Shown here piece by piece: positions 4,397-4,529 of a DNA stretch of 64,000 nt. Each line of letters begins with the position of its first letter. The first letter of the stretch is position 1. The stretch is taken from NCBI RefSeq assembly GCF_055900595.2, contig NZ_CM148325.1. One strand, 5' to 3'. The notes under the pieces were generated by a model. It was not told where the DNA came from, made no database searches, and saw nothing but the letters and a program-made list of their open reading frames with translations. The translations under genes and the position numbers were made by a program.

Positions 4397-4430
4397 GATG
4401 CTCTCCCAAATATGAAATCTCTTGCTGGCA

Positions 4431-4447
4431 TTACAAGAATCATGCCA
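4431..4447 (-). promoter_or_regulatory. Candidate sigma-54 (-24/-12) promoter for pspG
   Basis: Reverse strand reads TGGCATGATTCTTGTAA (GG-N10-TTGT spacing close to the TGGCAC-N5-TTGCA consensus), ~35 nt upstream of the pspG start; pspG is a known PspF/sigma-54 target. Confidence 0.45.
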
Positions 4448-4529
4448 AAAATAATCTATTGATTTAACAGCAAAACGCCCCGCGACGGTGCGCAGGGCGT
4501 GGTGAATTTGACTACTTTTTGGTGAAAAG

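What the first reader, a model, noticed from the sequence alone, without database searches (positions are those of the whole stretch)
4397..4529. Sigma-54-type promoter and IHF-like AT tract upstream of pspG
The reverse strand carries TGGCATGATTCTTGTAA with -24/-12 spacing upstream of pspG, with an AT-rich segment (aataatctattgatttaac) that would suit IHF bending and an upstream activator site further on. This fits PspF-dependent regulation of pspG, which is located apart from the main psp operon.
Basis: partly seen in the sequence, partly recalled or inferred. Interest (0 to 1): 0.25.

Follow-up and report, generated by a model that had tools for sequence, protein, structure and literature searches.

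The report
Known sigma-54 promoter of pspG

Summary

The window is E. coli. Its dusA-pspG intergenic region (4397-4529) is base-for-base identical to K-12 MG1655.

**Sigma-54 element.** The 17-mer TTGGCATGATTCTTGTA (4448..4432, minus strand) is exactly the pspG site mapped by sigma-54 ChIP-seq. It is the top hit in the 64-kb window with a PWM built from 41 other ChIP sites (17.2 bits; next best 12.4). An equivalent element lies upstream of pspG in all 80 orthologous loci examined, from about 20 genera.

**IHF site.** Three bases upstream lies a perfect IHF core, AATCAATAGATTA (4464..4452). Its consensus positions are conserved across genera and its N positions are not.

**PspF enhancer.** The site is TAGTCAAATTCACCA (4514..4500), centred near -86. 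A PWM made from the pspG orthologues recovers both PspF sites of the pspA enhancer.

**What I add.**
- The dusA intrinsic terminator hairpin (4500..4475) sits inside the enhancer-promoter spacer and covaries strongly.
- A conserved TTCRCYA half-site lies 20 bp upstream of the UAS, mirroring the pspA spacing.
- The non-canonical -12 "GT" is kept in 76 of 81 sequences.
- The sRNA PspH lies in the pspG 3' UTR.

Novelty: already known. Interest: low.

The parts
4530..4532 (-). dusA stop codon (TAA); upstream boundary of the regulatory region, about -111..-109 relative to the predicted start
   Evidence: ORF list and sequence; Dus Pfam match E=1e-104; RefSeq annotation
4520..4526 (-). Conserved TTCACCA (TTCRCYA) element exactly 20 bp upstream of the same heptamer in the main UAS. 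Possible degenerate second PspF half-site; inferred, not established
   Evidence: Column identities T89 T91 C99 A59 C100 T67 A96 in 75 sequences; offsets 78-80 and 58-60 from the 17-mer. The pspA enhancer has TTCGCCA and TTCGCTA 20 bp apart. As a full 15-nt site it scores -15.7 bits
4500..4514 (.). PspF upstream activating sequence TAGTCAAATTCACCA, an imperfect dyad centred at about -86
   Evidence: Mean column identity 0.91 across about 20 genera. A PWM from this block hits the pspA enhancer at L002 313-327 (13.7 bits) and 333-347 (10.1 bits); scores of 10 bits or more occur at 3.9e-5 per position. The published PspF UAS TAGTGTAATTCGCTAACT equals L002 333-350. One UAS is reported for pspG
4471..4500 (-). 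dusA intrinsic terminator: 10-bp GC-rich stem (4500..4491 with 4484..4475), 6-nt loop, then a T-run (4474..4471). It lies inside the enhancer-promoter spacer (-79..-50)
   Evidence: Terminator scan. RNA fold -20.3 kcal/mol, z=-2.8. Covariation: 96.4% of cells paired, 8 of 10 pairs changed on both sides, 0/500 shuffles reach the observed values, slid controls 37-60% paired
4452..4464 (-). IHF core AATCAATAGATTA (WATCAANNNNTTR), about -43..-31, 3 nt upstream of the sigma-54 17-mer
   Evidence: Perfect consensus match. Conservation: WATCAA 0.85, NNNN 0.58, TTA 0.99. CAA-N4-TTR is present in 70 of 81 sequences, at a gap of 3-4 nt in 65 hits and 13-14 nt in distant genera. Dickeya ihf mutants lower pspG
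4432..4448 (-). Sigma-54 promoter 17-mer TTGGCATGATTCTTGTA (GG at -25/-24, GT at -13/-12)
   Evidence: PWM 17.2 bits, top of window. Identical to ChIP-seq site OS40. Present in all 80 loci; -24 block identity 0.93, -12 block 0.94
4421..4421 (-). Predicted transcription start, 25 nt upstream of the ATG (inferred, not mapped here)
   Evidence: Rule used in PMC4591121: 19 bp downstream of the motif centre, and their 'distance 25' for pspG; motif centre is 4440
4403..4406 (-). Shine-Dalgarno GGAG, 6 nt before the ATG
   Evidence: Sequence; 'gggagag' recurs before the ATG in orthologues
4154..4396 (-). pspG coding sequence (80 aa plus stop)
   Evidence: Pfam PF09583 E=3e-25; RefSeq annotation
3987..4097 (-). 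PspH sRNA (K-12 b4758), overlapping the pspG 3' UTR and ending at the bidirectional terminator 4018..3996. It lies downstream in the same transcription unit unless made only from its own promoter
   Evidence: K-12 annotation mapped through alignment A2. Published as an Spf sponge, possibly independently transcribed (PMC5145812). The only terminator-like site on the minus strand after pspG is 4018..3996

Best explanation
The dusA-pspG intergenic region is the enhancer-dependent sigma-54 promoter of pspG.

**How it works.** RNA polymerase-sigma54 sits as a closed complex on TTGGCATGATTCTTGTA (-27..-11). The AAA+ activator PspF binds the dyad TAGTCAAATTCACCA centred near -86, just after the dusA stop codon. 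IHF binds AATCAATAGATTA (-43..-31) and bends the roughly 60-bp spacer so that PspF can contact the closed complex. PspF then uses ATP hydrolysis to open the promoter. Under non-stress conditions PspA holds PspF inactive. Transcription starts about 25 nt before the pspG ATG.

**dusA terminator.** The spacer also encodes the dusA intrinsic terminator, so dusA transcription stops before the pspG promoter.

**Shown here:** the sequence elements, their statistical strength, their conservation and covariation, and identity to K-12.

**Taken from the literature:** sigma-54 occupancy, PspF binding and activation, and in-vitro open-complex formation.

**Inferred:** the exact start site, the IHF footprint and the looping geometry.
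For: - **Identity to K-12.** The region is identical to K-12 and at least 95% identical in 5,424 of 5,426 E. coli genomes.
- **Sigma-54 PWM.** 17.2 bits, first in the window.
- **Published sigma-54 data.** ChIP-seq site OS40 has the same 17-mer, and sigma-54 overexpression raises pspG. Salmonella ChIP-chip enrichment is 39. E-sigma54/PspF open complexes form in vitro on a pspG probe.
- **Conservation.** All 80 orthologous loci have the element 34-46 nt (Enterobacteriaceae) to 190 nt before the ATG.
- **IHF.** Perfect core. Consensus positions are conserved and N positions free. The gap to the promoter is fixed at 3-4 nt, or about 10 nt more in distant genera. ihf-mutant transcriptomics in Dickeya support dependence.
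- **UAS.** The most conserved non-coding block after the sigma-54 elements. It cross-detects both pspA PspF sites and matches the published UAS. PspF is reported to bind the UASs of the pspA and pspG promoters, with one UAS at pspG.
- **No rival promoter, and a terminator in between.** No sigma-70-like promoter on the minus strand. A covarying terminator separates dusA from pspG.
Against: - The -12 dinucleotide is GT, not the canonical GC. However, pspA shares this and it is conserved in 76 of 81 sequences.
- The IHF core ends only 3 nt from the 17-mer, closer than at pspA (core about -60..-48). An IHF footprint would therefore abut or overlap the closed complex.
- An unbiased 33-nt ungapped comparison of the pspG and pspA enhancers was not significant (191/2000 shuffles as good).
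- The primary paper on IHF and PspF at pspG (Lloyd 2004) could not be read, and no experimental start-site record was found.
Confidence: 0.95

Rival explanations
1. The conserved CAA-N4-TTA tract is not an IHF site. It is conserved for another reason: as the T/A-rich tail of the dusA terminator, as an UP-like contact for the RNA polymerase alpha subunit, or as an upstream extension of the sigma-54 contact. On this view the loop forms without IHF.
For: The strict WATCAANNNNTTR consensus is present in only 32 of 81 sequences; many Enterobacter and Klebsiella sequences have AACAA or TTCAA instead. The core abuts the -24 element at 3 nt. A single consensus match is not rare in 64 kb: 7 found, 2.6 expected. 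No IHF binding data for this site could be retrieved.
Against: The conservation pattern follows the IHF consensus exactly: C100 A100 A89, then four free positions, then T96 T100 A100. In distant genera the tract moves by about one helical turn rather than disappearing. pspG falls 2.3-4.7 log2 units in Dickeya ihf mutants with an AATCAATGCGTTA site. IHF-dependence of E. coli pspG is reported by Lloyd et al. 2004 (my own knowledge of the abstract; paper not held).
Confidence: 0.08
2. The 17-mer is a sigma-54 binding site that is not the main source of pspG mRNA. pspG would instead be expressed by read-through from dusA or from an unrecognised sigma-70 promoter.
For: Many sigma-54 ChIP sites in E. 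coli are non-productive (PMC4591121). In Salmonella the promiscuous-activator array gave only a 1.4-fold change for pspG despite strong binding. No start-site record was retrieved.
Against: A covarying intrinsic terminator lies between dusA and the promoter. No sigma-70-like promoter is found on the minus strand. pspG rises on sigma-54 overexpression and is listed as PspF-regulated. It is 20-fold induced from one UAS. In-vitro transcription initiation works on the promoter probe.
Confidence: 0.03
3. The motif matches are chance occurrences in an AT-rich intergenic region.
For: The crude pattern TGGCAYN5TTGY occurs 3 times in the window against 0.83 expected, which is not by itself significant.
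Against: The PWM score is first of about 128,000 positions. The element is present at the homologous place in 80 of 80 loci across about 20 genera. Experimental occupancy is published.
Confidence: 0.01

Closest known systems
E. coli K-12 pspG (yjbO) promoter, pspGp (Lloyd et al. 2004, J Biol Chem 279:55707; sigma-54 ChIP-seq site OS40 in PMC4591121)
   Same: It is the same locus. The 133-bp intergenic region and the PspH region are identical to MG1655, and the 17-mer is identical to the published site.
   Different: Nothing in the sequence differs. This analysis adds cross-genus conservation, covariation of the embedded dusA terminator, and a conserved upstream half-site.
E. coli pspA promoter (pspF-pspA divergent region)
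   Same: Same activator (PspF). Same -24/-12 core with the unusual -12 TTGT (TTGGCACGCAAATTGTA). PspF sites share the AATTCRCYA right half. An IHF-consensus match lies between enhancer and promoter, and the distance from UAS centre to IHF core is similar (39 versus 43 nt; and my arithmetic).
   Different: pspA has two full UAS dyads 20 bp apart and about 100-fold induction. pspG has one full dyad plus at most a half-site and about 20-fold induction. The pspG IHF core is about 17 nt closer to the promoter. The pspG spacer carries the terminator of the upstream gene, whereas the pspA enhancer overlaps the divergent pspF promoter.
IHF-assisted sigma-54 promoters in general (nifH, glnHp2, Pu)
   Same: Tripartite layout of enhancer, IHF bend and -24/-12 promoter, with the enhancer about 80-130 bp upstream (background in PMC2709558).
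   Different: This one is very compact. The whole system fits into 133 bp between two genes, and the IHF core is only 3 nt from the promoter 17-mer.

Membership tests
Sigma-54 (-24/-12) promoter | GG and GC dinucleotides exactly 10 bp apart within YTGGCACGrNNNTTGCW | tested here: met
   TTGGCATGATTCTTGTA has GG at -25/-24 with correct spacing. The -12 is GT instead of GC, a deviation shared with pspA and two other ChIP sites. PWM 17.2 bits against a training median of 15.9.
Sigma-54 (-24/-12) promoter | Sense orientation, short distance upstream of a gene | tested here: met
   The 17-mer ends 35 nt before the pspG ATG on the same strand; the predicted start is 25 nt before it.
Sigma-54 (-24/-12) promoter | Conserved at orthologous loci | tested here: met
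   80 of 80 loci have a best hit of 10.4-19.2 bits; 79 of 80 score 15 bits or more. Block identities are 0.93 and 0.94.
Sigma-54 (-24/-12) promoter | Occupied by sigma-54 holoenzyme in vivo; activator- and ATP-dependent open-complex formation | not testable with these tools
   Literature on the identical sequence: ChIP-seq FAT 15, and heparin-resistant open complexes with PspF(1-275) and dATP.
IHF binding site | Match to core WATCAANNNNTTR | tested here: met
   AATCAATAGATTA at 4464..4452, 13 of 13.
IHF binding site | A/T-rich tract 5' of the core | tested here: inconclusive
   The 5' flank is GCGTTTTGCTGTTA. It is T-rich but doubles as the terminator T-run, and the spacer columns are only 0.68 conserved.
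IHF binding site | Consensus positions conserved and N positions free across orthologues; helical phasing kept | tested here: met
   WATCAA 0.85, NNNN 0.58, TTA 0.99. The gap to the 17-mer is 3-4 nt in Enterobacteriaceae and 13-14 nt in Yersinia, Rahnella, Biostraticola and Brenneria.
IHF binding site | IHF footprint and IHF-dependent expression | not testable with these tools
   Indirect only: Dickeya zeae ihf mutants, and Lloyd 2004 from my own knowledge. The IHF ChIP supplement is not held.
PspF upstream activating sequence | Similarity to the published PspF site TAGTGTAATTCGCTAACT | tested here: met
   11 of 15 core positions identical. A PWM from pspG orthologues scores the two pspA sites at 13.7 and 10.1 bits; about 0.012 hits of 10 bits or more are expected by chance in that region. 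A longer 33-nt ungapped comparison was not significant.
PspF upstream activating sequence | Dyad symmetry | tested here: inconclusive
   The site scores on both strands (26.6 and 12.1 bits), but the half-sites TAGTC and TGGTG agree at only 3 of 5 positions.
PspF upstream activating sequence | Located about 80-130 bp upstream of the start | tested here: met
   Centre at 4507, which is -86 relative to the predicted start at 4421.
PspF upstream activating sequence | PspF binding | not testable with these tools
   PMC3709507 states that PspF binds the UASs of the pspA and pspG promoters and that pspG has one UAS.

The most novel reading that the evidence does not exclude
The pspG control region may be wired more richly than the published 'one UAS' picture, in two ways.

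(a) A conserved TTCRCYA half-site lies exactly 20 bp upstream of the main UAS, at 4526..4520, right after the dusA stop codon. It could act as a degenerate second PspF contact, mirroring the UAS II/UAS I spacing at pspA.

(b) No terminator separates pspG from PspH, so the sigma-54 promoter also produces the PspH sequence. Membrane stress could then raise a sponge of the Spot 42 (Spf) sRNA, linking the Psp response to carbon-metabolism control.
Probability: 0.3. Interest if true: 0.3.

Novelty: already known. Interest (0 to 1): 0.08.

Why it matters
It matters little as a discovery. The pspG promoter, its sigma-54 and PspF dependence and its IHF assistance have been in the literature and in EcoCyc since 2004. 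The value here is confirmatory: raw-sequence reading correctly recovered a real enhancer-dependent promoter. There are also small additions:
- cross-genus evidence for each element;
- an upstream gene's terminator embedded in the enhancer-promoter loop;
- conserved non-canonical -12 GT;
- a possible second PspF half-site;
- a possible transcriptional link to the PspH sRNA.

Tried and rejected
- **Crude consensus TGGCAYN5TTGY.** Not discriminating: 3 hits against 0.83 expected. Replaced by a ChIP-derived PWM.
- **Unbiased 33-nt ungapped comparison of the pspG and pspA enhancers.** The best match fell elsewhere and was not significant, with 191 of 2000 shuffles as good. The UAS assignment therefore rests on conservation, the 15-nt PWM cross-validation and the published UAS string.
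- **Upstream TTCACCA element as a full second UAS.** Rejected as a full site, at -15.7 bits. Kept only as a possible half-site.
- **Primary papers.** Lloyd et al. 2004 and Green & Darwin 2004 are not held.
- **IHF ChIP supplement (PMC3333857).** Not held.
- **Search for a published pspG start site.** Found nothing usable.
- **Rfam.** No family in 3900-4700.
- **Sigma-70 promoter scan.** Nothing on the minus strand upstream of pspG.
- **Other sigma-54-like PWM hits in the window.** All 12.4 bits or lower, and none corresponds to a high-stringency ChIP site in the K-12 equivalent region.

Full report
**What is at the coordinates**

The window is E. coli chromosome. A 601-bp query around the finding is 100% identical to several E. 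coli genomes and is annotated dusA / pspG. On the minus strand, dusA ends with TAA at 4532..4530. pspG runs from the ATG at 4396 to the stop at 4154, encodes 80 aa, and matches Pfam PF09583 at E=3e-25. The finding's range, 4397-4529, is therefore exactly the dusA-pspG intergenic region. Aligned to K-12 MG1655, this intergenic region is identical base for base. It is at least 95% identical in 5,424 of 5,426 complete E. coli genomes. Experiments done on K-12 therefore apply directly.

**The sigma-54 element**

TTGGCATGATTCTTGTA lies at 4448..4432 on the minus strand. GG is at 4446/4445 and the -12 dinucleotide at 4434/4433, with canonical spacing. The -12 dinucleotide is GT rather than GC.

- The loose consensus pattern is not informative on its own: 3 hits against 0.83 expected.
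- I built a PWM from the 41 other intergenic-sense sigma-54 ChIP-seq sites of Bonocora et al. 2015 (PMC4591121), leaving pspG out.
- The site scores 17.2 bits and ranks first in the whole window. The next best is 12.4 bits, and the training median is 15.9.
- Randomised windows contain 0.195 such sites on average. By my arithmetic that gives about 2e-4 expected in this 133-nt stretch on the right strand.
- The same 17-mer is listed in that paper as site OS40 upstream of pspG, with FAT 15, a predicted start 25 nt before the gene, and an 'experimentally confirmed' flag. This places the predicted start at window 4421.

**Independent experimental support from held papers**

- Sigma-54 overexpression raises pspG, and PspF is its known activator.
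- In Salmonella LT2 the orthologous site TGGCATGATTTTTGTAAG is strongly enriched in sigma-54 ChIP-chip.
- E-sigma54 with PspF(1-275) and dATP forms heparin-resistant open complexes and abortive products on an 88-nt E. coli pspG probe. The authors note that pspA and pspG share identical -24 and -12 elements.
- PspF binds the UASs of the pspA and pspG promoters. pspG has one UAS and is about 20-fold induced.

**Comparative evidence**

A scan of one genome per species found 80 pspG loci in about 20 genera, from Escherichia to Yersinia, Rahnella and Brenneria.

- Every locus has a sigma-54 element upstream of pspG, and 79 of 80 score 15-19 bits. The exception is Citrobacter werkmanii NBRC 105721, which has GG changed to GT at -24.
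- The non-canonical -12 TTGT is kept in 76 of 81 sequences.
- In a 75-sequence alignment of the Enterobacteriaceae upstream regions (A1), the mean column identities by element are:

| Element | Mean identity |
|---|---|
| -24 block | 0.93 |
| -12 block | 0.94 |
| UAS block | 0.91 |
| IHF WATCAA | 0.85 |
| IHF NNNN | 0.58 |
| IHF TTA | 0.99 |
| Hairpin loop | 0.51 |

**The IHF site**

This is a perfect match to WATCAANNNNTTR, about -43..-31 relative to the predicted start.

- The conservation pattern is what an IHF site predicts. Consensus positions are held (C100 A100 A89 ... T96 T100 A100) and the four N positions drift.
- CAA-N4-TTR lies 3-4 nt from the 17-mer in Enterobacteriaceae. In Yersinia, Rahnella, Biostraticola and Brenneria it lies 13-14 nt away, a shift of about one helical turn.
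- In Dickeya zeae, pspG carries AATCAATGCGTTA upstream and is down-regulated in ihfA, ihfB and double mutants.
- Lloyd et al. 2004 reported IHF-assisted activation of E. coli pspG. I cite that from memory of the abstract, because the paper is not held.
- Caveats: only 32 of 81 sequences keep the strict consensus, and the core is unusually close to the -24 element.

**The PspF enhancer**

Immediately after the dusA stop lies TAGTCAAATTCACCA (4514..4500), centred at about -86.

- After the sigma-54 elements, it is the most conserved non-coding block.
- A PWM made only from this block in pspG orthologues scores the two repeated elements of the K-12 pspA enhancer at 13.7 and 10.1 bits (L002 313-327 and 333-347). 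Scores of 10 bits or more occur at 3.9e-5 per position in the window.
- The second of those elements is the published PspF UAS, TAGTGTAATTCGCTAACT.
- A longer, unbiased 33-nt comparison was not significant, so the similarity is confined to the 15-nt core.
- A heptamer TTCACCA (4526..4520) repeats the right half of the UAS exactly 20 bp upstream. That is the same spacing as TTCGCCA / TTCGCTA in pspA, and the heptamer is conserved as TTCRCYA.
- It is not a full site (-15.7 bits). In three of the five distant genera, however, the second-best hit also lies exactly 20 bp upstream of the main site.

**The terminator inside the loop**

Between the UAS and the IHF site lies a 10-bp GC-rich hairpin with a T-run (4500..4471).

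- It is detected as terminator-like.
- It folds at -20.3 kcal/mol with z = -2.8.
- It covaries strongly across 75 sequences: 96.4% of cells are paired, 8 of 10 pairs change on both sides, none of 500 shuffles reach the observed values, and slid controls give only 37-60% paired.

This is the dusA intrinsic terminator. It insulates pspG from dusA read-through and uses the DNA that serves as the enhancer-promoter spacer. No sigma-70-like promoter was found on the pspG strand.

**Downstream**

K-12 annotates the sRNA PspH directly after pspG. This maps to window 4097..3987 on the minus strand. PspH is a published sponge of Spf and may have its own promoter. The only terminator-like site on that strand after pspG is the bidirectional one at 4018..3996. 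Transcripts from the sigma-54 promoter should therefore include the PspH sequence. Whether stress raises PspH is untested.

**Verdict**

The feature is the well-known pspG promoter: sigma-54 with PspF and IHF. Novelty is 'already known' and interest is low. The modest additions are the embedded, covarying dusA terminator, the conserved -12 GT, the possible second PspF half-site, and the possible link to PspH.

Noticed in passing
window 3987-4097 (-): The sRNA PspH (K-12 b4758), a published sponge of the Spf/Spot 42 sRNA, lies in the pspG 3' UTR with no terminator between it and pspG. It may therefore be co-transcribed from the sigma-54 promoter, although an independent promoter has been suggested.
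   Followed up: partly
window 3996-4018 (both strands): A perfect 9-bp-stem hairpin with T-runs on both sides. It is a bidirectional terminator shared by the convergent qorA and pspG/pspH.
   Followed up: partly
L026:1949-1965 (Citrobacter werkmanii NBRC 105721): The only one of 80 loci whose -24 GG is changed, to TTGTCATG (10.4 bits). This is either a promoter-down natural variant or a sequencing error.
   Followed up: no
L015 and L032 (Salmonella enterica subsp. arizonae and diarizonae), between the 17-mer and the pspG ATG: The promoter is 68-69 nt from the ATG instead of about 35. The extra DNA (…ctgagtagacccggtaagcgc.gt.ccgccgggcaa…) looks like an inserted REP-like palindrome in the 5' UTR. 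L032 is also the only sequence with a canonical -12 TTGC.
   Followed up: no
L077 (Yersinia vastinensis), upstream of pspG: The best sigma-54 element is 190 nt before the matched start of pspG. This implies either a long 5' UTR or a different start codon.
   Followed up: no
window 26120-26134 (both strands): TGATGAAATTCACCG scores 10.0 and 8.8 bits with the PspF-UAS PWM and closely resembles the pspA UAS-II-like element TGATGAAATTCGCCA. No strong sigma-54 hit is nearby, so it is probably chance.
   Followed up: no
window 45043-45112 (-): Rfam RNA-OUT match (97 bits), indicating an IS10/Tn10-type element in this strain.
   Followed up: no
window 53668-58679 (-); 31969-32165 (+); 17857-17927, 29979-30050, 48125-48385 (-): An rRNA operon (5S, 23S, tRNA, 16S), a lysine riboswitch, and several naRNA4/REP-type repeats.
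   Followed up: no
window 5929-6933 (-): A 334-aa ORF just upstream of dusA whose translation is very rich in N, K, I and D, suggesting low G+C and possibly foreign DNA. It was not identified.
   Followed up: no
window 12791-12807 (+), 13485-13501 (-), 9177-9193 (-), 49361-49377 (+), 50246-50262 (-): Weak sigma-54-like PWM hits (11.2-12.4 bits). None corresponds to a high-stringency sigma-54 ChIP-seq site in the equivalent K-12 region.
   Followed up: partly
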